Source of the DNA: a virus
Lineage: Duplodnaviria; Heunggongvirae; Uroviricota; Caudoviricetes
Virus record (IMG/VR): IMGVR_UViG_2537562173_000005
Length of the DNA: 11,084 nt
Reading direction: 5' to 3' (one strand)
Shown piece by piece: positions 1 through 11,084 of the stretch. Each line of letters opens with the position of its first letter. Positions within the stretch are counted from its first letter, which is position 1. The notes under the pieces are model-generated. The model was not told where the DNA came from, ran no database searches, and worked only from the letters and a program-made list of their open reading frames with translations. The position numbers were made by a program, and so were the translations under genes.

Positions 1-369
1 CTTATTAATATTCTGGATAAGTTCTCCACCTGGTATGACACGAATAGCGTGACGCTGGGCGGTGTCAAAATTCCGCACCTTTTCCCCGGTGATGATCTGA
101 AACTTCAGACCGCGCAGGATTCAGACAATGGATTTTCGGCGCTTGAACAGGCGCTGCTGCGGTATATCGCCGCCGGCCNNNNNTCTGAGCCGGGTTCGTA
201 AGCTGTGCTGACTGCGGGATCAGGTAAGGCCGAACCGGTCTCTGCATCCACAACCGCCCTGTTTGAACATTTCATGGCGAATCATTCACCGGCAGCGGTG
301 CGGGGTGGCGTGTCACAGACGTCAGCAGACGGTGATGCGGACGTGAAAATGCTCATGGCCATGTCATGA
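1..369 (+). CDS. 3' end of an upstream head gene, probably the scaffold/prohead protease (lambda C/Nu3 position); interrupted by an N gap at 179-183
   Basis: Frame 1 is open from 1 to the N run, and frame 1 is open again from 202 to the TGA at 367-369, 36 nt upstream of the D start. Position immediately before D matches lambda Nu3/C. Frame continuity across the gap is unknown and I see no clear sequence match. Confidence 0.3.
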
Positions 370-405: not shown

Positions 406-753
406 ATGGTGACGAAAACCATCACTGAACAGCGTGCGGAAGTACGTATTTTTGCCGGTAATGATCCGGCTCATACCGCCACAGGCAGCAGCGGGATTTC
501 TTCTGCAACACCGGCTCTGACGCCCCTGATGCTGGATGAAGCCACCGGGAAACTGGTGGTCTGGGATGGACAGAAAGCCGGTAGTGCGGTTGGCATACTG
601 GTACTGCCGCTTGAAGGCACAGAGACGGCGCTGACGTATTACAAGTCGGGGACCTTTGCGACGGAGGCAATCCGCTGGCCTGACAGTGTGGATGAACACA
701 AAAAGGCAAATGCCTTTGCCGGCACAGCCCTGAGTCACGCGGCGCTGCCGTAA
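406..753 (+). CDS. D: head decoration protein (lambda gpD family)
   Basis: 115-aa ORF with a GAGG ribosome-binding site about 10 nt upstream. Shares motifs with lambda gpD (DPAHTAT, TPLMLD, KLV.WDG, AVGIL, YKSGTF, AFAGTA) but is clearly diverged. Confidence 0.9.
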   Translation: MVTKTITEQRAEVRIFAGNDPAHTATGSSGISSATPALTPLMLDEATGKLVVWDGQKAGSAVGILVLPLEGTETALTYYKSGTFATEAIRWPDSVDEHKKANAFAGTALSHAALP

Positions 754-810: not shown

Positions 811-1482
811 ATGGGATTGTTTACGACCCGCCAGTTACTCGGTTATACCGAACAAAAAGTGAAATTCCGTGCGCTGTTTCTGGAGCTGTTTTTCCGCCGT
901 ACGGTGAATTTCCACACCGAAGAGGTGATGCTGGACAAAATTACCGGAAAAACGCCGGTGGCGGCCTATGTCTCCCCGGTTGTTGAAGGAAAAGTGCTTC
1001 GCCATCGCGGTGGTGAAACCCGCGTGTTACGTCCGGGCTACGTCAAGCCGAAACACGAATTTAATTACCAGCAGGCGGTTGAGCGCCTTCCTGGTGAAGA
1101 TCCGGCTCAGCTGAACGACCCGGCCTACCGTCGTCTGCGTATCATTACCGATAACCTCAAACAGGAAGAGCACGCCATTGTCCAGGTGGAAGAAATGCAG
1201 GCGGTGAATGCCGTGCTGTATGGCAAATACACCATGGAAGGGGAGCAGTTTGATACTGTCGAGGTGGATTTCGGGCGCTCTGAAGGAAATAACATTGAGC
1301 AGGCTGACGGTAAAAAATGGTCTGAGCAGGACCGTGATACGTTTGATCCGACGCATGATATTGACCTCTACTGCGATCAGGCCAGCGGCCTTGTGAATAT
1401 CGCCATTATGGACGGTACGGTCTGGCGTCTGCTGAATGGCTATGTCGGGGAGTGCTGCGGATATTGCTCAACGTGTGTCTGA
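811..1482 (+). pseudogene. E: major capsid protein (lambda gpE family), C-terminally truncated
   Basis: The first ~210 aa align with lambda gpE (QLL...FLRLFFR, YVSP, PGYVKPKHE, DPAYRR.RII, IAQVEEMQAV.AVL.GKYTM.GE.FD.VEVD.GRSE.NNI, VNI). Homology then stops and the ORF ends after 13 unrelated residues; lambda gpE is 341 aa. Confidence 0.8.
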
Positions 1483-1756
1483 GTGGGAAGAGGAGCTTGC
1501 TGTTTCCCCGGAGGGCATTATGCACTCTGATGAGAGCGGGGCTGATCAAAATCACACAGACGATGGTGAGCAGTTGAACAACACGGATGCTCCGGATGAT
1601 GTTAAAGCCGTCCGGGTACGGAAGTGCCTGCAAGTAATGGGGTATTGCCCGGAGACAGGTCGTCCCGTTGAGCTGGCGTTACGGGGTATGCGTGTTCTGG
1701 TGCCATCATCACTGGCAACGGCCATGATACAGCACGGAACGGCTGAATATGCGTGA
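1436..1756 (+). CDS. FI: FI-like head protein (DNA packaging / head-tail joining accessory), apparently missing its N-terminus
   Basis: Acidic 106-aa ORF between E and FII, the FI position; the segment RVSEWEEEL resembles lambda gpFI RVAELKEEL. Its stop (1754-1756) overlaps the FII start. About 25 N-terminal residues seem to be absent and the start codon lies in the E/FI junction. Confidence 0.55.
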   Translation: MAMSGSAADIAQRVSEWEEELAVSPEGIMHSDESGADQNHTDDGEQLNNTDAPDDVKAVRVRKCLQVMGYCPETGRPVELALRGMRVLVPSSLATAMIQHGTAEYA

Positions 1757-2102
1757 TTTTCAGAATGCCTTTGATGCTGCCCTCGCCGGGGTAGACAGTA
1801 CGATCGTTGAAGTGATGGGGCTCTGTGCGCAGTTCACCTCGGGGGCACAGTGTGGCAGCGAAGTTCAGGGGGTTTTTGATGATCCGGAGTCGCTGGGGTT
1901 TGCCGGTGGCGGGGTCCGTATTGAAGGAAGCAGCCCGTCATTATTTGTGCGGACGGATACGGTTCGTGCCGTGCGGCGTGGTGACACGCTGACCATTAAT
2001 GGTGAGATATTCTGGGTGGATCGTGTTTCTCCGGATGACGGGGGCAGCTGTTATCTCTGGCTCAACCGTGGTCAACCACCCGCAGTTAACCGGCGACGAT
2101 AA
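1749..2102 (+). CDS. FII: head-tail connector protein (lambda gpFII family)
   Basis: 117 aa, same length as lambda gpFII, with conserved motifs (GVFDDPE, GVR.EGSSPSLFVRTD, RRGDTLTI, FWVDRVSPDDGGSC.LWL.RG.PPAVNRRR). Confidence 0.9.
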   Translation: MRDFQNAFDAALAGVDSTIVEVMGLCAQFTSGAQCGSEVQGVFDDPESLGFAGGGVRIEGSSPSLFVRTDTVRAVRRGDTLTINGEIFWVDRVSPDDGGSCYLWLNRGQPPAVNRRR

Positions 2103-2117
2103 ACGCAGGGTGAAATT

Positions 2118-2651
2118 ATGGCGATAAAAGGGCTTGATCAGGCGATTGACAATCTGAGCCGGGTTCGTAAAAACGCCATTCCGGCGGCTTCAGCAATGGC
2201 CATTAACCGCGTGGCCACAACGGCGATTAATCAGTCTTCATCACAGGTTGCCCGGGAGACAAAGGTTCGCCGGAAACTGGTTAAGGAACGGTCCAGACTG
2301 AAACGGGCGACGGTCAGAAATCCGAATGCCAGAATTATCGTTAACCGCGGTGATCTCCCTGTGATTAAGCTGGGGATCAGGATGCTGGGGCGTCGCCCGA
2401 ACAGCATACTTAAAGCCGGTCAGCATCGGTATCAGCGGGCATTTATTCAGAGATTAAAAAATGGTCGCTGGCATGTCATGCAGCGTGTGGCCGGGAAAAA
2501 CCGTTACCCCATTGATGTGGTGAAAATCCCGATGGCGGCCCCACTGAAACAGGCATTTGATGAGAATGTTGACCGTATCCGGCGTGAACGCCTGCCTAAA
2601 GAACTGGCATACGCGCTGAAACAACAACTGAGGATTGCAATAAAACGATGA
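2118..2651 (+). CDS. Z: tail completion protein (lambda gpZ family)
   Basis: 177 aa; MAIKGL...AMAINRVA...SQVARETKVRRKLVKER.RLKRATV...NRGDLPVIKLG...FIQ.LKNGRWHVMQRVAGKNRYPIDVVKIPMA closely matches lambda gpZ. Confidence 0.9.
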   Translation: MAIKGLDQAIDNLSRVRKNAIPAASAMAINRVATTAINQSSSQVARETKVRRKLVKERSRLKRATVRNPNARIIVNRGDLPVIKLGIRMLGRRPNSILKAGQHRYQRAFIQRLKNGRWHVMQRVAGKNRYPIDVVKIPMAAPLKQAFDENVDRIRRERLPKELAYALKQQLRIAIKR

Positions 2652-3043
2652 AACACACTGACATTCGTGCCGCAGTGCTGGATGCACTCGAGCAGCATGA
2701 ACACGGGGCGACGCTGTTTGATGGTCGCCCCGTTGTTTTTGACGAAGAGGATTTTCCTGCGATCGCGGTTTATCTGACGGATGCAGAGTATACCGGTGAA
2801 GAGCTGGATGCAGATACCTGGCGGGCCACGCTGCATATTGAGGTGTTTTTACCGGCACAGGTACCGGATTCAGAGCTTGATCAGTGGATGGAAAGCCGGA
2901 TTTACCCGGCGATGACCGCGATCCCGGCACTGGCAGGACTGATTACCACGATGGTTACGCAGGGCTATGAGTATCGTCGTGATGACGATATGGCGTTATG
3001 GAGTTCTGCAGATCTGACTTATTCCATTACATACGAGATGTGA
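2648..3043 (+). CDS. U: tail terminator protein (lambda gpU family)
   Basis: 131 aa, same length as lambda gpU and near-identical along its length ([13 protein letters not shown]...[24 protein letters not shown]...[19 protein letters not shown]). ATGA overlap with the Z stop. Confidence 0.92.
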
Positions 3044-3050
3044 GGACGAT

Positions 3051-3803
3051 ATGGCAACACCAAATCCCCTTGAGCCGGTAAAAGGTGCCGGTACCACTCT
3101 GTGGGTTTACAACGGCAAGGGTGATGCTTATGCAAACCCGTTGTCAGACGATGACTGGCAGCGACTGGCTAAGGTGAAGGATCTGACGCCGGGCGAGATG
3201 ACGGCAGAATCCTACGATGATAACTACCTGGATGATGAAGACGCGGACTGGACCGCGACCGGGCAGGGGCAGAAATCTGCAGGTGATACCAGTTTTACGC
3301 TGGCCTGGAAACCGGGAGAGGAAGGCCAGAAAGGGCTTATAGGCTGGTTTGAAAGCGGCGATGTCCGGGCCTATAAAATCCGTTTTCCGAATGGCACGGT
3401 GGATGTGTTTCGTGGCTGGGTCAGCAGTATCGGTAAGGCCGTGACGGCGAAAGAAGTGATCACCCGCACGGTGAAAGTCACTAACGTGGGTAAACCTTCT
3501 GTAGCGGAAGAACGCAGCAAAATTACGCCGGTCAGTGCGATTAAGGTGACGCCGACATCCGGTACGGTGGCAAAAGGGAAAACAACCACCCTGACGGTTT
3601 CTTTTGAGCCGGAAAGTGCAACCGACAAGACGTTCAGAGCGGTTCCCGCCGATCCGTCGAAAGCCACCATTAGTGTGAAAGATATGACAATTACGGTAAA
3701 CGGCGTGGCGACAGGTAAGGTGCAGATCCCTGTGGTGAGCGGAAATGGTCAGTTCGCCGCAGTGGCTGAAGTCACCGTTACTGAAGCGGGCGCTGCAGGG
3801 TAA
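3051..3803 (+). CDS. V: major tail tube protein with C-terminal Ig-like domain (lambda gpV family)
   Basis: 250 aa; [70 protein letters not shown] and [42 protein letters not shown] match lambda gpV. GGAGG-like ribosome-binding site upstream. Confidence 0.95.
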
Positions 3804-3816
3804 ACGGAGGTAATAC

Positions 3817-4248
3817 ATGTTTCTGAAAACAGAACAATTTGAATATAACGGTGTGTCTGTCACGCTTTCCGAATTGTCTGCGCTGCAGCGTATCGAGCAT
3901 CTTGCCCTCCTGAAACGGCGTGCAGAACAGGCAGAATCCTGCGGCAACCTGCAGGTAAGCGTGGAAGATCTCGTCAGAACCGGCGCGTTTCTGGTGGCGA
4001 TGTCCCTGTGGCATAACCATCCACAGAAAACGCAGTCACCGTCAATGAATGAGGCCGTGATGAAGATAGAGCAGGAAGTGCTCACCACCTGGCCTGCCGA
4101 TGCCATTGCCCGGGCGGAAGACGTGGTGTTGTGCCTGTCCGGGATGATCGAAGCTGTTCGTCCGGATACTGATATTACTGAAGTGGCGAAAAATAACACG
4201 CTGACTGATGATGATTTTTCTGCGGGAAAGTCTTCGACGGCGAGCTGA
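3817..4248 (+). CDS. G: tail assembly chaperone G (zero-frame product)
   Basis: 143 aa; MFLKTE.FE.NGV.VTLSELSALQRIEHLAL.KR.AEQAES and TGAFLVAMSLWHNHPQKTQ.PSMNEAV..IEQEVLTTWP match lambda gpG. GGAGG ribosome-binding site at 3806-3810. Confidence 0.9.
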   Translation: MFLKTEQFEYNGVSVTLSELSALQRIEHLALLKRRAEQAESCGNLQVSVEDLVRTGAFLVAMSLWHNHPQKTQSPSMNEAVMKIEQEVLTTWPADAIARAEDVVLCLSGMIEAVRPDTDITEVAKNNTLTDDDFSAGKSSTAS

Positions 4249-4688
4249 ACTTTGCCCTCAGACTGGCGCGTGAGATGGGGAGACCCGACTGGCGCGCCAT
4301 GCTTGCCGGGATGACATCCACCGAATATGCCGACTGGCACCGTTTTTACCGCACGCATTATTTTCAGGATACCCAGCTGGATATGCATTTTTCCGGGCTG
4401 ACGTACGCTGTACTCAGCCTGTTTTTTTGCGATCCGGATATGCATCCCTCTGATTTCAGTCTGCTTGTCCCCCGGCATGAGGAAGAGCAGGTGGAGAGGC
4501 CGGATGAGGACAAAATGCTGATGCAGAAAGCGGCAGGACTTGCCGGAGGCGTCCGGTTCGGTGGGGACGGAGGGCGCGATATTTTATCGTCTGCGGATGT
4601 GGCGGATGTCATGGTGGATGATGCCGCATTAATGATGGCTTCAGCGGGGATTCCGGGAGGTGTGAGATATGTCCCAGCCGGTTGGTGA
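3817..4688 (+). CDS. T: tail assembly chaperone G-T fusion made by programmed -1 ribosomal frameshift at 4224-4230
   Basis: After the slippery heptamer the -1 frame reads GKVFDGELNFALRLAREMGRPDWRAMLAGM...GVRYVPAGW, matching lambda gpT (VFDGEL.FAL.LAREMGRPDWRAMLAGM.STEYADWHRFY). The T frame has no start codon or ribosome-binding site of its own until 4275. Confidence 0.8.
4224..4230 (+). other. programmed -1 frameshift slippery heptamer G GGA AAG (G to T frame)
   Basis: GGGAAAG sits near the 3' end of G, with GGA and AAG as zero-frame codons. This is the same heptamer and the same relative position as the known lambda G-T frameshift site. Confidence 0.75.
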
Positions 4689-6828
4689 TCTTGTTATTGA
4701 CCTGAGTCTGGATGCTGTCCGTTTCGATGAGCAGATGAGCCGGGTAAGGCGTCATTTTTCAGGTCTGGATACCGACGCCAGAAAAACCGCCAGTGCTGTT
4801 GAACAGGGCCTGAGCCGCCAGGCGCTGGCTGCACAAAAAGCCGGGATTTCCGTCGGGCAGTATAAAGCGGCCATGCGAACCCTGCCCGCACAGTTTACGG
4901 ATATCGCCACGCAGCTTGCCGGTGGTCAGAATCCCTGGTTGATCCTGCTGCAACAGGGCGGTCAGGTGAAGGACTCCTTCGGCGGGATGATCCCCATGTT
5001 CAGGGGGCTTGCCGGTGCGATCACCCTGCCGATGGTCGGGGTCACCTCGCTGGCGGTGGCGACAGGTGCGCTGGCGTACGCCTGGTACCAGGGCGACGCC
5101 ACGCTTTCAGAATTTAATAAAACGCTGGTCCTTTCCGGCAATCAGGCCGGACTGACTGCCGATCGTATGCTGACGCTCTCAAGAGCCGGGCAGGCAGCAG
5201 GGCTGACGTTTAACCAGGCGAGAGAGTCACTGGCAGCCCTGGTGAATGCCGGTGTGCGTGGTGGTGAACAGTTTGATGCCATCAACCAGAGTGTCGCGCG
5301 TTTTGCGTCTGCATCCGGTGTGGAGGTGGATAAAGTCGCTGAAGCCTTCGGGAAGCTGACCACTGACCCGACGTCGGGACTGATGGCGATGGCGCGCCAG
5401 TTCCGTAACGTGACGGCAGAGCAGATTGCGTATGTTGCACAGCTGCAGCGTTCCGGAGACGAGGCCGGGGCATTGCAGGCGGCGAACGATATCGCCACGA
5501 AAGGCTTTGATGAGCAGACCCGTCGCCTGAAAGAAAACATGGGAACACTGGAGACCTGGGCGGATAAAACAGGGAAGGCATTCAAATCGATGTGGGATGC
5601 CATTCTGGATATCGGTCGTCCGGAATCCTCAGCGGATATGCTCGCCAGTGCGCAGAAGGCATTTGATGAGGCGGATAAAAAATGGCAGTGGTACCAGAGC
5701 CGGAGCCAGCGCCGGGGAAAGACCTCCTCTTTTCGTGCGAACCTTCAGGGGGCATGGGATGACCGGGAAAATGCCCGTCTGGGTCTGGCAGCGGCCACGC
5801 TGCAGTCGGATATGGAAAAAGCCGGTGAACTGGCGGCAAGGGACAGGGCTGAGCGTGAGTCGTCACAGCTGAAGTATACCGGAGAGGCGCAGAAGGCGTA
5901 TGAGCGCCTGCAGACGCCGCTGGATAAATATACCGCCCGTCAGAAAGAGCTGAATAAGGCCCTGAAAGACGGAAAAATCCTGCAGGCGGATTACAACACG
6001 CTGATGGCGTCGGCAAAAAAGGATTATGAATCGACGCTGAAAAAGCCGTCAGGTGTGAAGGTGTCTGCCGGTGAGCGCCAGGAAGACCGGGCGCATGCAG
6101 CCCTGCTGGCGCTTGAAACCGAGCTCAGGACGCTGGAAAAACACAGCGGTATGAATGAGAAAATCAGCCAGCAGCGCCGGGATTTATGGGAATCTGAAAG
6201 TCAGTATGTGGTCCTGAAAGAGGCCGCCACGAAACGGCAGTTATCTGAGCAGGAAAAATCCCTGCTGGCTCATGAGAAAGAGACGCTGGAGTACAAACGC
6301 CAGCTGGCTGAGCTGGGAGACAAGATTGAACACCAGAAGCGGCTGAATGAGCTGGCACAGCAGGCGGCGCGGTTTGAACAGCAGCAAAGCGCGAAGCAGG
6401 CGGCAATCAGCGCAAAAGCCCGCGGCCTCACCGACCGTCAGGCGCAGCGGGAGTCGGAAGAGCAGCGCCTTCGTGAGGTGTACGGTGATAATCCGGCTGC
6501 GCTGGCGAAGGCCACATCGGCACTGAAGAACACCTGGTCTGCGGAGGAGCAGCTTCGTGGAAGCTGGATGGCCGGGATGAAGTCCGGCTGGGGAGAGTGG
6601 GCGGAAAGTGCGACGGACAGTTTTTCGCAGGTTAAAAGTGTGGCCACGCAGACCTTTGACGGTATTGCACAGAATATGGCGGCGATGCTGACCGGCAGCG
6701 AACAGAACTGGCGGGGATTCACCCGTTCCGTGCTGTCCATGATGACAGAAATTCTGCTTAAGCAGGCAATGGTGGGGATTGTCGGGAGTATCGGCAGCGC
6801 CATTGGCGGGGGGGGCGCCTCCGCCTGA
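4669..6828 (+). CDS. H: tail tape measure protein (lambda gpH family), N-terminal 719 aa; reading frame ends prematurely at a G homopolymer
   Basis: Long Ala/Gln/Glu-rich ORF; N-terminus PVGDLV.DLSLDA.RFDEQM.RVRRHFSG and many internal blocks match lambda gpH. It ends ...IGSAIGGGGASA* at TGA 6826-6828, directly after a G8 run. Confidence 0.9.
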   Translation: MSQPVGDLVIDLSLDAVRFDEQMSRVRRHFSGLDTDARKTASAVEQGLSRQALAAQKAGISVGQYKAAMRTLPAQFTDIATQLAGGQNPWLILLQQGGQVKDSFGGMIPMFRGLAGAITLPMVGVTSLAVATGALAYAWYQGDATLSEFNKTLVLSGNQAGLTADRMLTLSRAGQAAGLTFNQARESLAALVNAGVRGGEQFDAINQSVARFASASGVEVDKVAEAFGKLTTDPTSGLMAMARQFRNVTAEQIAYVAQLQRSGDEAGALQAANDIATKGFDEQTRRLKENMGTLETWADKTGKAFKSMWDAILDIGRPESSADMLASAQKAFDEADKKWQWYQSRSQRRGKTSSFRANLQGAWDDRENARLGLAAATLQSDMEKAGELAARDRAERESSQLKYTGEAQKAYERLQTPLDKYTARQKELNKALKDGKILQADYNTLMASAKKDYESTLKKPSGVKVSAGERQEDRAHAALLALETELRTLEKHSGMNEKISQQRRDLWESESQYVVLKEAATKRQLSEQEKSLLAHEKETLEYKRQLAELGDKIEHQKRLNELAQQAARFEQQQSAKQAAISAKARGLTDRQAQRESEEQRLREVYGDNPAALAKATSALKNTWSAEEQLRGSWMAGMKSGWGEWAESATDSFSQVKSVATQTFDGIAQNMAAMLTGSEQNWRGFTRSVLSMMTEILLKQAMVGIVGSIGSAIGGGGASA

Positions 6829-7234
6829 GGGGGGTACAGCCATTCAGGCCGCCGCGGCGAAATTCCATTTTGCAACCGGAGGATTTACGGGAACCGGCGG
6901 CAAATATGAGCCAGCGGGGATTGTTCACCGTGGTGAATTTGTCTTCACAAAGGAGGCAACCAGCCGGATTGGCGTGGGGAATCTCTATCGGCTGATGCGC
7001 GGCTATGCCACCGGTGGTTATGTCGGTACACCGGGCAGTCTGGCTGACAGCCGGTCGCAGGCGTCCGGGACGTTTGAGCAGAATAACCATGTGGTGATTA
7101 ACAACGACGGCACGAACGGGCAGATAGGTCCGGCTGCTCTGAAGGCGGTGTATGACATGGCCCGCAAGGGTGCCCGTGATGAAATTCAGACACAGATGCG
7201 TGATGGTGGACTGTTCTCCGGAGGTGGACGATGA
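6779..7234 (+). CDS. H: C-terminal part of tape measure protein H in the +1 frame (frameshifted continuation)
   Basis: From about 6830, frame 2 reads GGTAIQAAAAKFHFATGGFTGTGGKYEPAGIVHRGEFVFTKEATSRIGVGNLYRLMRGYATGGYVGTPGS...RDGGLFSGGGR, matching the lambda gpH C-terminus. The ATG at 6779 is probably not a real start. Confidence 0.8.
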   Translation: MSGVSAAPLAGGAPPPEGGTAIQAAAAKFHFATGGFTGTGGKYEPAGIVHRGEFVFTKEATSRIGVGNLYRLMRGYATGGYVGTPGSLADSRSQASGTFEQNNHVVINNDGTNGQIGPAALKAVYDMARKGARDEIQTQMRDGGLFSGGGR

Positions 7235-7560
7235 AAACCTTCCGCTGGAAAGTGAAACCCGGGATGGATGTGACATCGGCTCCTTCCGTCAGGGAGGTGC
7301 GCTTTGGTGATGGCTATTCCCAGCGTGCGCCTGCCGGGCTGAACGCTGACCTGAAAACGTACAGCGTGACGCTGTCTGTCTCCCGTGAGGAGGCCACGGC
7401 GCTGGAGTCGTTTCTGGCTGAGCACGGGGGCTGGAAGGCCTTTCTGTGGACGCCGCCTTATGGTTACAGGCAGATAAAGGTGACCTGCGCAAAATGGTCG
7501 TCGCAGGTCAGTATGTTGCGTGTTGGGTTCAGCGCAGAGTTTAAACAGGTGGTGAACTGA
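7231..7560 (+). CDS. M: tail tip assembly protein (lambda gpM family)
   Basis: 109 aa, same length as lambda gpM and near-identical (MKTFRWKVKPGMDV...RFGDGYSQRAPAGLNA.LKTYSVTLSV.REEAT.LESFL.EHGGWK.FLWTPPY..RQIKVTCAKWSS.VSMLRV.FSAEF.QVVN). ATGA overlap with the H stop. Confidence 0.93.
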   Translation: MKTFRWKVKPGMDVTSAPSVREVRFGDGYSQRAPAGLNADLKTYSVTLSVSREEATALESFLAEHGGWKAFLWTPPYGYRQIKVTCAKWSSQVSMLRVGFSAEFKQVVN

Positions 7561-8258
7561 TGCAGGATATCCGGCAGGAAACACTGAATGAATGCACCCG
7601 TGCGGAGCAGTCGGCCAGCGTGGTGCTCTGGGAAATCGATCTGACAGAGGTCGGTGGAGAACGTTATTTTTTCTGTAATGAGCAGAACGAAAAAGGTGAG
7701 CCGGTCACCTGGCAGGGGAGGCAGTATCAGGCGTATCCCATTCAGGGGAGCGGTTTTGAACTGAATGGCAAAGGCACCAGTACGCGGCCCACGCTGGCAG
7801 TCTCTAACCTGTACGGCATGGTCACCGGTATGGTGGAAGATATGCAGAGTCTGGTCGGCGGAACGGTGGTCCGGCGTAAGGTTTACGCCCGTTTTCTGGA
7901 TGCGGTGAACTTCGTCAACGGAAACAGAGACGCCGATCCGGAGCAGGAGGTGATCAGCCGCTGGCGCATCGAGCAGTGCAGCGAACTGAGTGCGGTCAGT
8001 GCCTCCTTTGTACTGTCCACACCGACGGAAACGGATGGTGCCGTTTTTCCGGGGCGCATCATGCTGGCTAATACCTGCACCTGGACCTATCGCGGTGATG
8101 AGTGCGGTTATCACGGTCCGGCAGTCGCGGATGAATATGACCAGCCGACGTCCGATATCACGAAGGATAAATGCAGCAAATGCCTGAGCGGCTGTAAGTT
8201 TCGCAATAACGTCGGCAACTTTGGCGGCTTCCTTTCCATTAACAAACTTTCGCAGTAA
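7560..8258 (+). CDS. L: tail tip assembly protein (lambda gpL family), cysteine cluster near C-terminus
   Basis: 232 aa, same length as lambda gpL. C-terminal region contains CTWTYRGDECGY and CSKCLSGC, consistent with the cysteine-rich metal/Fe-S site described for gpL. Start overlaps the M stop by 1 nt. Confidence 0.92.
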   Translation: MQDIRQETLNECTRAEQSASVVLWEIDLTEVGGERYFFCNEQNEKGEPVTWQGRQYQAYPIQGSGFELNGKGTSTRPTLAVSNLYGMVTGMVEDMQSLVGGTVVRRKVYARFLDAVNFVNGNRDADPEQEVISRWRIEQCSELSAVSASFVLSTPTETDGAVFPGRIMLANTCTWTYRGDECGYHGPAVADEYDQPTSDITKDKCSKCLSGCKFRNNVGNFGGFLSINKLSQ

Positions 8259-8262
8259 TCCC

Positions 8263-9006
8263 ATGACAGAGACAGAATCAGCGATTCTGGCGCACGCCCG
8301 GCGATGTGCGCCAGCGGAGTCGTGCGGCTTCGTGGTAAGCACGCCGGAGGGGGAAAGATATTTCCCCTGCGTGAATATCTCCGGTGAGCCGGAGGCGTAT
8401 TTCCGGATGGCTCCGGAGGACTGGCTGCAGGCAGAGATGCAGGGTGAGATTGTGGCGCTGGTCCACAGTCATCCCGGTGGTCTGCCCTGGCTGAGTGAGG
8501 CCGACCGGCGGCTGCAGGTGCAGAGCGATTTGCCGTGGTGGCTGGTCTGCCGGGGGGCGATTCACAAGTTCCGCTGTGTGCCGCATCTCACCGGGCGGCG
8601 CTTTGAGTACGGGGTGACAGACTGTTACACACTGTTCCGGGATGCTTACCATCTGGCGGGGATTGAGATGCCGGATTTTCATCGCGGGGATGACTGGTGG
8701 CGTCACGGTCAGAATCTCTATCTTGACAATATGGAGGCTACTGGTTTTTACCGTGTCGCACTGACAGAGGCGCAGCCGGGCGATGTGCTGCTGTGCTGTT
8801 TTGGTTCATCGGTGCCGAATCACGCCGCCATTTACTGCGGCGACGGTGAGCTGCTGCACCATATTCCTGAACAACTGAGTAAACGAGAGAGGTATACCGA
8901 CAAATGGCAGCGACGCACACACTCCCTCTGGCGTCACCGGGAATGGCACGCATCTGCCTTTACGGGGATTTGCAACGATTTGGCCGCCGCATCGACCTTC
9001 GTGTGA
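8263..9006 (+). CDS. K: tail tip assembly protein (lambda gpK family) with MPN/JAMM-like and NlpC/P60-like regions
   Basis: MTETESAILAHARRCAPAESCGFVVSTPEGERYFPCVNISGEPEAYFRM matches the lambda gpK N-terminus. HSHPGG...SEAD fits a JAMM-type motif and DCYTLF...H fits an NlpC/P60-type Cys/His pattern. The ORF track starts at an in-frame ATG at 8221 that overlaps L; the ATG at 8263, just after the L stop, is more likely. Confidence 0.88.
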   Translation: MTETESAILAHARRCAPAESCGFVVSTPEGERYFPCVNISGEPEAYFRMAPEDWLQAEMQGEIVALVHSHPGGLPWLSEADRRLQVQSDLPWWLVCRGAIHKFRCVPHLTGRRFEYGVTDCYTLFRDAYHLAGIEMPDFHRGDDWWRHGQNLYLDNMEATGFYRVALTEAQPGDVLLCCFGSSVPNHAAIYCGDGELLHHIPEQLSKRERYTDKWQRRTHSLWRHREWHASAFTGICNDLAAASTFV

Positions 9007-9545
9007 AAACGGGGGCTGAAGCCATCCGGGCACTGGCCACACAGCTCCCGGCGTTTCGTCAGAAACTGAGCGATGGCTGGTATCAGGTACGGATTGCCGG
9101 GCGGGATGCAGGAGAAACCGAATTATCATCCCGTCTTAATGAGCCGCTGGCAAATGGTGCCGTGATCCACATCGTGCCGCGTCTTGCGGGAGCAAAAAGT
9201 GGCGGTGTGTTTCAGGCGGTGCTGGGTGCGGCGTTGATTGCTACGGCAATCTGGATGCCGGGGATCAGTATCGCTTTCAGTGACATTCTCTTTTCAATGG
9301 GTGCGGCGATGACGCTTGGTGGTGTGGCGCAGATGCTGGCACCGAAAGCCAGAACTCCCCGTACACAGACAACGGATAACGGCAAACAGAACACCTATTT
9401 CTCCTCACTGGATAACATGGTTGCCCAGGGCAATGTTCTGCCGGTTCTGTACGGTGAAATGCGCGTGGGGTCACGTGTGGCATCTCAGGAGATCAGCACG
9501 GCAGATGAAGGGGATGGTGGTCAGGTTGTGGTAATTGGGCGGTAA
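8904..9545 (+). CDS. I: tail tip assembly protein (lambda gpI family)
   Basis: 213 aa. The N-terminal ~65 aa (MAATHTLPLASPGMARICLYGDLQRFGRRIDLRVKTGAEAIRALATQLPAFRQKLSDGWYQVRIAGRD) and the C-terminus (VLGGVAQMLAPKARTPR.QTTDNGKQNTYFSSLDNMVAQGNVLPVLYGEMRVGSRV.SQEISTADEGDGGQVVVIGR) are essentially identical to lambda gpI. GAGAGG ribosome-binding site upstream; overlaps the K 3' end in another frame, as in lambda. Confidence 0.93.
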   Translation: MAATHTLPLASPGMARICLYGDLQRFGRRIDLRVKTGAEAIRALATQLPAFRQKLSDGWYQVRIAGRDAGETELSSRLNEPLANGAVIHIVPRLAGAKSGGVFQAVLGAALIATAIWMPGISIAFSDILFSMGAAMTLGGVAQMLAPKARTPRTQTTDNGKQNTYFSSLDNMVAQGNVLPVLYGEMRVGSRVASQEISTADEGDGGQVVVIGR

Positions 9546-9551
9546 TATTAT

Positions 9552-9580
9552 TTTACTCATGTTCTAACTAATTTAATATT
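9552..9580 (+). promoter_or_regulatory. candidate sigma70-type promoter for the moron ORF
   Basis: TTTACT (9552-9557), a 17-nt spacer, then TAATAT (9575-9580), in an AT-rich block about 40 nt upstream of the lipoprotein ATG. Consensus match is only moderate, and GATAAT at 9594-9599 is an alternative -10. Sequence-only prediction. Confidence 0.25.
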
Positions 9581-9618
9581 TATATCGAACACTGATAATT
9601 ATTCTATTGGTTAGCTAT

Positions 9619-9957
9619 ATGAACAAAACGATTTTATTCTGCACGATTATTGCCTTAACAGGATGTAAATCTTTGGATTACGTAAAATCCGGAAAACCTG
9701 TAATGGAAGGTAATTCATTAAAAAATATTGATGAATTGTCAGGCTGCATATCCAGACAATGGGCTGGTAATGGAACACCTATAACATCCCTTCCTATTGA
9801 GAATGGGGTAAGCCTTTTAGTTCCACAGGCTATGGGGGGATATGATGTTGTGCTTGATATCAAAAAAGCAGGAAATGGCAGTAGTTTTACTCTTTATGAA
9901 CGTGTACCAGCATTAACGCCAAAAATTTTTGCTGATAGTGTTAATGCATGTAAATAA
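9619..9957 (+). CDS. predicted lipoprotein encoded by a moron inserted between tail genes I and J
   Basis: 112-aa ORF from ATG 9619. N-terminus MNKTILFCTIIALTGC is a classic type II signal peptide with lipobox L-T-G-C. The ORF and its flanks are visibly AT-rich compared with the GC-rich phage genes. The six-frame track starts at TTG 9607; the ATG is more plausible. The ribosome-binding site is weak. Confidence 0.7.
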   Translation: MNKTILFCTIIALTGCKSLDYVKSGKPVMEGNSLKNIDELSGCISRQWAGNGTPITSLPIENGVSLLVPQAMGGYDVVLDIKKAGNGSSFTLYERVPALTPKIFADSVNACK

Positions 9958-9981
9958 TAGTTAATCCTGTCGTAACTCATG

Positions 9982-10009
9982 AGCCGCCTTTTGGGCGGCT
10001 TTGTTGTTT
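9982..10009 (+). terminator. rho-independent terminator downstream of the moron ORF
   Basis: AGCCGCC (9982-9988), loop TTTTG, GGCGGCT (9994-10000) form a perfect 7-bp GC-rich stem, followed by the T-rich tract TTGTTGTTT (10001-10009), about 25 nt after the ORF stop. Confidence 0.65.
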
Positions 10010-10023
10010 ATGGAGTGTGAGGA

Positions 10024-11084
10024 ATGGGTAAAGGAAGCAGTAAGGGGCATACCCCGCGCGAAGCGAGGGACAACCTGAAGTCCACGCAGCTGCTGAGTGT
10101 GATCGATGCCATCAGCGAAGGGCCGGGTGAAGGGCCGGCCCCCCGGACCTCAACNNNNNCGGGCCGGTGAGCAGGAGCAGACACCGCCGGAGGGATTTGA
10201 ATCCTCCGGCTCCGAGACGGTGCTGGGTACGGAAGTGAAATATGACACGCCGATCACCCGGACCATCACGTCGGCAAACATCGACCGTCTGCGCTTTACC
10301 TTCGGTGTGCAGGCACTGGTGGAAACCACCTCAAAGGGGGACAGGAATCCATCGGAAGTCCGCCTGCTGGTTCAGATCNNNNNATTCTGCAGGTGCCGTC
10401 GAACTATAACCCGCAGACGCGGCAATACAGCGGTATCTGGGACGGAACGTTTAAGCCAGCATACAGCAACAACATGGCCTGGTGTCTGTGGGATATGCTG
10501 ACCCATCCGCGCTACGGCATGGGGAAACGTCTTGGTGCGGCAGATGTGGATAAATGGGCGCTGTATGTCATCGGCCAGAATTGCGACCAGTCGGTGCCGG
10601 ATGGCTTTGGTGGCACGGAGCCGCGCATCACCTGTAATGCCTACCTGACCACACAGCGCAAGGCGTGGGATGTTCTCAGTGATTTCTGCTCGGCGATGCG
10701 CTGTATGCCGGTATGGAACGGGCAGACGCTGACATTCGTGCAGGACCGACCGTCGGATAAGGTGTGGACCTATAACCGCAGTAATGTGGTGATGCCGGAT
10801 GATGGTGCGCCGTTCCGCTACAGCTTCAGCGCCCTGAAAGACCGCCATAATGCTGTTGAGGTGAACTGGATTGACCCGGATAACGGCTGGGAGACGGCGA
10901 CAGAGCTTGTGGAGGACACGCAGGCCATTGCCCGTTACGGTCGTAACGTCACGAAGATGGATGCCTTTGGCTGTACCAGCCGGGGGCAGGCACACCGCGC
11001 CGGGCTGTGGCTGATTAAAACGGAACTGCTGGAGACGCAGACCGTGGATTTCAGCGTCGGCGCAGAAGGGCTTCGCCATGTACC
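10024..11084 (+). CDS. J: tail tip / central tail fibre protein (lambda gpJ family), 5' partial, with two internal N gaps
   Basis: Starts MGKGSSKGHTPREA.DNLKSTQLLSVIDAISEGP, and later AGEQEQTPPEGFESSGSETVLGTEVKYDTPITRTITSANIDRLRFTFGVQALVETTSKGDRNPSEVRLLVQI and ILQVPSNYNPQTRQYSGIWDGTFKPAYSNNMAWCLWDMLTHPRYGMGKRLGAADVDKWALYVIGQ, all essentially identical to lambda gpJ. GGAG/GAGG ribosome-binding site upstream. The gene runs past the window end; N runs at 10155-10159 and 10379-10383 break the apparent frame. Confidence 0.92.

What the first reader, a model, noticed from the sequence alone, without database searches (positions are those of the whole stretch)
179..201. N gap upstream of D followed by an exact 18-nt copy of a Z-gene segment
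Right after the N run (179-183), the 18-mer TCTGAGCCGGGTTCGTAA (184-201) is identical to 2153-2170 inside the Z coding sequence (DNLSRVRKN region). In its position at 184-201 it puts stop codons in all three forward frames. An 18-nt exact match within 11 kb is very unlikely by chance. It sits at a gap edge, so the likeliest explanations are a chimeric contig end or scaffolding artefact, or alternatively a short recombination or duplication scar disrupting the 3' end of the scaffold/protease gene.
Basis: seen in the sequence. Interest (0 to 1): 0.4.

Follow-up and report, generated by a model that had tools for sequence, protein, structure and literature searches.

The report
Chimeric junk at assembly gap edge
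The 18-base copy of a tail-gene segment next to the N run is real in the deposited sequence, but it is almost certainly a chimeric leftover at an unclosed gap in a 2011 short-read draft assembly of an E. coli prophage, not a biological feature.

Summary
TCTGAGCCGGGTTCGTAA occurs exactly twice, at 184-201 and at 2153-2170 in gene Z, and no shuffle of the window reproduced this. The window is the whole GenBank record AEYT01000020.1. That record is a scaffold of the Illumina GA IIx draft of E. coli clone A strain i1 (ST95).

Near-identical intact prophages in SF-088 and APEC O1 show that the 5-N run hides 1,835 bp: the 3' part of the portal gene and most of C/Nu3. In those prophages the 18-mer occurs only in Z. 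None of 1,476 complete-genome records that match the C 3' end carries the 18-mer there. The junction string is also absent from three public contig collections.

The 201|202 join is blunt, with no microhomology. The copy's left end is simply where the Ns begin.

The rest of the scaffold looks equally poor:
- two more 5-N gaps in J, one edged by 16 nt of orphan sequence
- a corrupted poly-G block that frameshifts the tape-measure gene
- a unique 518-bp E/FI deletion junction
- mismatches enriched 14-fold near breakpoints

Best reading: an assembly artefact. The topology and the 2,487-bp spacing fit a junction read from a circularised (mate-pair) fragment. A real tandem duplication cannot be excluded without reads, but it is unlikely.

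The parts
1..178 (+). Internal fragment of the portal (B) gene. Positions 1-176 are identical to SF-088 and APEC O1. Base 177 is a T-to-C mismatch two bases from the gap.
   Evidence: annotation of L001 and L003
179..183 (.). A 5-N scaffold gap. It stands for 1,835 bp of the intact prophage: the 3' third of the portal gene and the first ~1.3 kb of C/Nu3.
184..201 (+). The chimeric 18-nt tail, an exact copy of Z 2153-2170. Its left end is cut by the N run. Its right end joins the C 3' sequence bluntly, with 0 nt of microhomology.
202..369 (+). Genuine 3' end of the C/Nu3 (S49 peptidase/scaffold) gene, in frame with position 184. A211 differs from both relatives examined.
406..753 (+). Head decoration gene D, intact
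   Evidence: (PF02924)
2118..2651 (+). Tail gene Z, intact. It holds the source copy of the 18-mer at 2153-2170, which is the only copy in the intact relatives.
   Evidence: (PF06763)
1441..1442 (+). Second breakpoint of the same scaffold, without Ns. E codon ~210 is joined to the middle of FI, and 518 bp are missing relative to the intact prophages.
6805..6835 (+). Corrupted block in the tape-measure gene H, with poly-G runs, many mismatches and a net loss of 8 nt. It splits H into two ORFs.
10139..10154 (+). Orphan 16 nt (CCCCCCGGACCTCAAC) at the left edge of the second gap. It is preceded by two T-to-G mismatches.
10155..10159 (.). Second 5-N gap, inside J. 89 bp of the reference are missing.
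10379..10383 (.). Third 5-N gap, inside J. 300 bp of the reference are missing, and both edges are clean.

Best explanation
The 18-mer at 184-201 is not part of the strain's prophage at this position. It is a chimeric tail left at the edge of an unclosed scaffold gap.

The record is a scaffold from a 2011 Illumina GA IIx draft of E. coli clone A strain i1. It covers a lambda-like prophage head-tail region that is present in two or more related copies in ST95 genomes and is therefore hard to assemble from short reads.

The contig carrying the C 3' end, D and E was probably extended at its left end by one or a few reads, or by a gap-closing step. In those reads, DNA ending at Z position 2170 is ligated bluntly to DNA starting at position 202. 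The scaffolder then placed 5 Ns between that tail and a 178-nt portal-gene fragment. This step is inferred.

The two joined points lie on the same strand, in the order 'downstream end then upstream start', and 2,487 bp apart in the intact prophage. That is what a read across the ligation point of a circularised 2.5-kb mate-pair fragment looks like. I think this is the most likely source of the chimera, but it is inferred, not shown.

The consequences are purely annotational. One is an apparent truncation of C/Nu3. The other is a spurious 50-aa ORF (49-201) that reads through the Ns and stops at the TAA of the 18-mer.
For: Source of the sequence:
- The window is identical to the whole of AEYT01000020.1 in GCA_000233675.2.
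- Its paper describes a draft from Illumina GA IIx paired-end reads, with 56 scaffolds holding 79 contigs, ordered on APEC O1. Sister isolates were sequenced with 1.5-4.5 kb mate-pair libraries (PMC3203180).

What the gap hides:
- Against the intact prophages of SF-088 and APEC O1 (99-100% identical), the window breaks at the same five points. The first gap hides 1,835 bp.

The 18-mer does not belong at this locus:
- It occurs once in each intact prophage, in Z, with no copy near the C 3' end even at 3 mismatches.
- In 1,476 records from complete E. coli genomes that match 184-300, every listed alignment starts at query base 19, which is window 202.
- The junction string is absent from viral contigs, genome contigs and metagenome contigs.

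Nature of the junction:
- It has zero microhomology on either side. That fits ligation, not homology-driven recombination or a k-mer mis-join.
- The copy's left boundary is the N run itself.

General quality of the scaffold:
- 16 orphan bases at 10139-10154 are found in none of 3,521 matching records.
- No full-length match to the corrupted H block 6805-6835 exceeds 88% identity among 3,132 matching records.
- The E/FI junction is found in none of 704 matching records.
- Mismatches are 14-fold enriched within 30 nt of breakpoints (7/232 against 24/10,772; p = 3e-6).

The region is repeated:
- ST95 genomes hold 2-5 places matching these head and tail genes.
Against: - No reads were available, so the chimera was not observed directly.
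- The paper says strain i1 was sequenced 'paired-end'. A mate-pair library is documented only for the sister isolates, and the assembler is not named.
- The same topology (downstream end joined to upstream start, same strand) would also come from a real 2.5-kb tandem duplication.
- I could not show that the missing segments are more repetitive than the retained ones. Both have 2 places in SF-088 and APEC O1.
Confidence: 0.88

Rival explanations
1. Strain i1 really carries a tandem duplication, or another rearrangement, of about 2.5 kb running from the C 3' end to the Z 5' end. The 18-mer|202 join is its novel junction. The assembler collapsed the two copies and kept the junction as a contig end.
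For: The topology fits: the end of the segment (Z 2170) is followed by its start (202), on the same strand and 2,487 bp apart in intact relatives. Blunt, homology-free duplication junctions do occur in bacteria (general knowledge).
Against: - No complete E. coli genome among 1,476 matching records has this junction, and it is absent from three contig collections.
- The sequence runs through 2170/2171 without any break. A full-coverage duplication would normally also fragment a short-read assembly there (inference).
- The junction sits exactly at an N gap in a scaffold whose other gap edges carry junk and errors.
- Base 211, nine bases from the join, differs from both relatives examined, and no complete genome matches 202-300 perfectly. 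This suggests poor read support.
Confidence: 0.06
2. The prophage of strain i1 has a real deletion from the portal gene to the C 3' end. It was repaired with a short filler copied from Z, leaving a templated-insertion scar.
For: The portal fragment and the C 3' end were placed next to each other by the scaffolder. The scaffold also contains another deletion-type junction, E/FI, without Ns.
Against: - The left side of the supposed filler is an N run, so no continuous sequence links it to the portal fragment.
- There is no microhomology at the right junction.
- A 5-N run only says that the assembler had no sequence there.
- All near-identical ST95 prophages are intact across this interval.
Confidence: 0.03
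3. The 18-mer is a natural repeated element, such as a shared protein-binding or regulatory site, present both upstream of D and inside Z. Alternatively it is a chance match.
For: None beyond the exact repeat itself.
Against: - Intact relatives have it only in Z, with no degenerate copy at up to 3 mismatches in a 30-kb locus.
- None of 1,476 matching records has it at the C 3' end.
- About 0.002 such pairs are expected by chance, and 0 of 200 shuffles produced one.
Confidence: 0.01

Closest known systems
Chimeric or low-quality contig ends at scaffold gaps in early short-read draft assemblies
   Same: It lies directly against an N run in a scaffold of a 2011 Illumina GA IIx draft. The sequence is foreign to the locus in all relatives. 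Other gap edges of the same scaffold carry orphan bases and excess mismatches.
   Different: Nothing material. The only unusual point is that the foreign piece can be traced exactly to a site 2.5 kb downstream in the same prophage.
Junction reads of circularised mate-pair fragments (Illumina mate-pair protocol without a junction adaptor; from general knowledge)
   Same: The join is blunt and homology-free. The end of a fragment (Z 2170) runs into its start (C 3' end, 202) on one strand. The implied fragment of 2,487 bp lies within the 1.5-4.5 kb range that the same paper used for mate pairs.
   Different: The paper describes strain i1 as 'paired-end' only, so use of a mate-pair library for this isolate is not documented. 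No reads were examined.
Tandem duplication junction in a prophage
   Same: It has the same head-to-tail topology and a blunt join.
   Different: There is no independent occurrence in any finished genome, no second break at 2170/2171, and it sits at an assembly gap.
Lambda-like prophage head-tail module (B, C/Nu3, D, E, FI, FII, Z, U, V, G, T, H, M, L, K, I, J) of ST95 E. coli such as APEC O1 and SF-088
   Same: Gene order matches, with 99-100% nucleotide identity over all aligned segments.
   Different: The window lacks 1,835, 518, 89 and 300 bp at four breakpoints and has a corrupted block in H. All of these are private to this draft.

Membership tests
Assembly artefact (chimeric tail at a scaffold gap edge) | Lies directly at an N run or contig end of a draft assembly | tested here: met
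   The 18-mer starts at the base after the N run at 179-183. The record is a scaffold of a draft assembly.
Assembly artefact (chimeric tail at a scaffold gap edge) | The sequence is absent from that locus in closely related finished genomes | tested here: met
   Among 1,476 matching records, the listed best alignments all start after the 18-mer. SF-088 and APEC O1 have it only in Z.
Assembly artefact (chimeric tail at a scaffold gap edge) | Other signs of poor assembly at neighbouring breakpoints | tested here: met
   Orphan 16 nt at 10139-10154, a corrupted H block, a private E/FI junction, and 14-fold mismatch enrichment near breakpoints.
Assembly artefact (chimeric tail at a scaffold gap edge) | The junction is unsupported, or supported only by rare or aberrant reads | not testable with these tools
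   No access to the reads of strain i1.
Mate-pair circularisation junction chimera | Same strand, with the downstream locus end joined to the upstream locus start | tested here: met
   Z 2153-2170 is followed by the C 3' end from 202, both on the + strand.
Mate-pair circularisation junction chimera | Separation of the two loci lies within the library's insert range | tested here: met
   The separation is 2,487 bp in SF-088 and APEC O1. The paper's mate-pair range is 1.5-4.5 kb.
Mate-pair circularisation junction chimera | Blunt ligation junction without homology | tested here: met
   0 nt of microhomology on either side.
Mate-pair circularisation junction chimera | A mate-pair library was used for this isolate | tested here: inconclusive
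   The paper says 'paired-end' for i1 and 'mate-pair and pair-end' for the 12 clone D isolates. The assembler is not named.
Real tandem duplication | The novel junction is seen in independent genomes or supported by doubled read depth | tested here: not met
   The junction is absent from 5,426 complete E. coli genomes and from three contig collections. Read depth is not testable.
Deletion with templated filler (recombination scar) | Continuous sequence across both sides of the filler | tested here: not met
   The left side is an N run.
Natural repeated motif | Conserved at both loci in relatives | tested here: not met
   There is one copy only, in Z, in the intact prophages, at up to 3 mismatches.

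The most novel reading that the evidence does not exclude
Strain i1 truly carries a homology-free head-to-tail junction between Z and the C 3' end. This would be a 2.5-kb tandem duplication spanning the C 3' end, D, E, FI, FII and the Z 5' end, or a rearranged second prophage copy. It would be a fresh illegitimate-recombination event inside a lambda-like prophage of a clinical ST95 isolate.
Probability: 0.06. Interest if true: 0.25.

Novelty: not a real feature. Interest (0 to 1): 0.05.

Why it matters
It matters only as a data-quality warning. AEYT01000020.1 should not be used to infer prophage decay in clone A strain i1. The apparent truncated portal, C/Nu3, major capsid and J genes, and the frameshifted tape measure, most probably reflect assembly defects. 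The deposited ORF 49-201 that reads across the Ns is spurious. If the junction were real, it would be a single illegitimate duplication or rearrangement in one prophage, which is of modest interest.

Tried and rejected
- **Chance:** rejected. 0 of 200 shuffles produced the repeat, and about 0.002 are expected.
- **Natural two-locus repeat:** rejected. The intact SF-088 and APEC O1 prophages have one copy, and no complete genome has the 18-mer at the C 3' end.
- **Independent occurrences of the junction:** exact scans of viral contigs, genome contigs and metagenome contigs found nothing. The E/FI junction was also absent from viral contigs.
- **k-mer overlap artefact of a de Bruijn assembler (k-1 = 18):** considered and set aside. 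That would need the 18-mer to precede GCTGTG in real sequence, and the junction shows no shared bases.
- **Repeat-driven breaks:** I tried to show that the segments missing from the scaffold are the repeated ones and the retained ones unique. This was inconclusive. Both the missing 1,835 bp and the retained 1,240 bp have 2 places in SF-088 and APEC O1.
- **Source of the orphan 16-18 nt at 10137-10154:** no match at up to 3 mismatches in the 30-kb APEC O1 prophage locus. It stays unexplained, probably low-quality reads.
- **Assembly method:** the paper and its supplement list name neither the assembler nor the library of strain i1.
- **Other contigs of the i1 assembly:** these might hold the missing portal/C segment, but they could not be retrieved with the available tools.

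Full report
**1. The observation**

The window has a 5-N run at 179-183. It is followed at once by TCTGAGCCGGGTTCGTAA at 184-201, and the same 18 bases occur at 2153-2170 on the same strand. Allowing two mismatches gave no further copy. None of 200 dinucleotide-preserving shuffles gave two matches, and about 0.002 exact 18-mer pairs are expected in 11 kb. It is the longest exact repeat in the window; the next longest are 14 nt.

The second copy lies in the ORF 2118-2651 (Pfam Minor_tail_Z) and encodes N-LSRVRK. The ORF after the gap, 406-753, is the head decoration protein D.

TGA at 186-188 and TAA at 199-201 are inside the 18-mer. The third frame's TGA is at 209-211, outside it.

**2. Where the window comes from**

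The truncated capsid ORF 811-1482 is a private protein. An exact-sequence look-up found it on a single contig: NCBI GCA_000233675.2, record AEYT01000020.1, 11,084 bp. That record is identical to the window from end to end.

AEYT00000000 is the draft genome of E. coli clone A strain i1 (ST95, close to APEC O1). [quoted passage not shown] The twelve sister isolates in the same paper were sequenced with paired-end (300-700 bp) and mate-pair (1.5-4.5 kb) libraries (PMC3203180). Neither the assembler nor further details for i1 are given.

By that count the assembly has only 23 gaps, and three of them lie in this 11-kb scaffold.

**3. Comparison with intact relatives**

Many complete E. coli genomes carry this lambda-like prophage at 99-100% identity. 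I aligned the window to the prophage of SF-088 (L001) and of APEC O1 (L003). The breakpoints are the same in both:

| Window | SF-088 (L001) | Content |
|---|---|---|
| 1-176 | 9001-9176 | inside the portal gene |
| 202-1441 | 11012-12251 | C/Nu3 3' end, D, first ~210 codons of E |
| 1438-10138 | 12766-21474 | middle of FI through the start of J |
| 10160-10378 | 21564-21782 | J |
| 10384-11084 | 22083-22783 | J |

The first N run therefore stands for 1,835 bp, made up of the portal 3' part and about 1.3 kb of C/Nu3. The second and third N runs stand for 89 and 300 bp of J. A further 518 bp are missing at 1441|1442, with no Ns there.

The missing 1,835 bp are present at 99.9% identity in APEC O1, S88 and many other ST95 genomes.

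**4. The 18-mer does not belong upstream of D**

- In both intact prophages the 18-mer occurs once, in Z. Where the window has the 18-mer, the relatives read ...GGAGAACGCCCGG before GCTGTGCTG. No degenerate copy with up to 3 mismatches exists in the 30-kb APEC O1 locus.
- A search with window 184-300 against 5,426 complete E. coli genomes found 1,476 matching records. Every listed alignment begins at query base 19, which is window 202.
- The 35-nt junction string is absent from viral contigs, genome contigs and metagenome contigs.

They do not.

**5. Anatomy of the junction**

- The Z copy stops exactly at 201. The next Z base is A, while window 202 is G.
- The C sequence starts exactly at 202. 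The preceding reference base is G, while window 201 is A.
- The join is therefore blunt, with no microhomology.
- The left end of the copy is the N run, so '18 nt' is just where the assembler stopped.
- Base 211, nine bases in from the join, differs from both relatives, and no complete genome matches 202-300 perfectly. The base two positions before the gap (177) is also a mismatch.

**6. The whole scaffold is error-prone at its breakpoints**

- The left edge of the second gap carries 16 orphan bases, CCCCCCGGACCTCAAC, preceded by two T-to-G mismatches. None of 3,521 matching records extends into them, and they have no source in the APEC O1 locus.
- At 6805-6835 the tape-measure gene reads TGGCGGGGGGGGCGCCTCCGCCTGAGGGGGGTAC. 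The relatives read TGGCGGGGCTGTTGGTGGCGGCGCATCCGCGTCAGGCGGTAC. The net loss of 8 nt splits H into ORFs 4669-6828 and 6779-7234. No full-length match to this stretch exceeds 88% identity among 3,132 matching records.
- None of 704 matching records has the E/FI junction as one piece.
- Mismatches to SF-088 are 14 times denser within 30 nt of a breakpoint than elsewhere (7/232 against 24/10,772; Fisher p = 3e-6).
- ST95 genomes contain 2-5 places matching these head and tail genes. That makes the region a repeat for short reads.

**7. Mechanism**

Shown:
- The 18-mer is foreign to this locus.
- It lies at an unclosed gap of a short-read draft.
- It joins bluntly.
- It is copied from a site 2,487 bp downstream on the same strand in the intact prophage.

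Inferred:
- It comes from a chimeric read, or from a gap-closing step, that extended the contig end.
- The order 'end of a 2.5-kb segment followed by its start', on one strand and without homology, is what a read across the ligation point of a circularised mate-pair fragment looks like (general knowledge of the Illumina mate-pair protocol without a junction adaptor).
- The implied fragment size falls in the 1.5-4.5 kb range used in the same study. A mate-pair library is not documented for i1, so this sub-hypothesis carries perhaps 0.35-0.4 of the probability.
- A random ligation chimera or a gap-closer misplacement of a locally recruited read are the other artefact routes.

**8. Rivals**

- A real 2.5-kb tandem duplication has the same topology and cannot be excluded without reads. 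It has no independent occurrence. The sequence shows no break at 2170/2171. The junction coincides with a gap in a scaffold full of other defects.
- A deletion with a templated filler fails because no continuous sequence links the 18-mer to the portal fragment.
- A natural two-site motif and chance are both excluded (sections 1 and 4).

**9. Verdict**

This is not a biological feature. Its only consequences are annotational: an apparently truncated C/Nu3 gene and a spurious ORF at 49-201 that reads through the Ns to the TAA of the 18-mer. Interest is low.

Noticed in passing
window 1441-1442: The major capsid gene E (from 811) is joined after about 210 codons to the middle of FI. 518 bp are missing relative to intact prophages, with at most 1 nt of exact microhomology and no Ns. 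None of 704 matching records from complete E. coli genomes has this junction as one piece. It is either a misassembly or a private inactivating deletion.
   Followed up: partly
window 6805-6835: A corrupted block in the tape-measure gene H, with poly-G runs, 6 substitutions and a net loss of 8 nt. It splits H into ORFs 4669-6828 and 6779-7234. No full-length match to this stretch exceeds 88% identity among 3,132 matching records. It looks like two low-quality contig ends merged.
   Followed up: partly
window 10127-10165: The second 5-N gap (10155-10159) lies in J. Its left edge has two T-to-G mismatches followed by 16 orphan bases, CCCCCCGGACCTCAAC, found in no complete E. coli genome and not in the APEC O1 prophage locus. 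Its right edge has an A-to-C mismatch. 89 bp of J are missing.
   Followed up: partly
window 10379-10383: The third 5-N gap lies in J and has clean edges. It stands for 300 bp of the intact gene. All three gaps are written as exactly 5 N whatever their true size (1,835, 89 and 300 bp), so the N count carries no size information.
   Followed up: yes
window 49-201: The deposited assembly has a called gene of 50 aa. It starts in the portal fragment, reads through the N run and stops at the TAA of the 18-mer. It is a spurious ORF created by the scaffold join.
   Followed up: yes
window 9600-10000: An AT-rich island (37.5% GC against 51-63% elsewhere) lies between the tail genes I and J. It holds ORF 9607-9957 (116 aa, with a lipoprotein-like N terminus ending in ...LTGC). 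Intact relatives have it too, annotated as a hypothetical protein (WP_001332187.1). It looks like a moron-type cargo gene.
   Followed up: no
window 7991-8086 and 8469-8502: Clusters of substitutions relative to SF-088 and APEC O1 lie in the L and K tail genes: 8-9 in about 95 nt and 3 in 34 nt, mostly transitions. The surrounding sequence is identical. This could be a small recombination patch from a paralogous prophage, or paralogous copies mixed in the assembly consensus.
   Followed up: no
window 651-726: The 3' end of the D gene differs from APEC O1 at 8 positions but is identical to SF-088. This is mosaic allelic variation among ST95 prophages, not an error.
   Followed up: no
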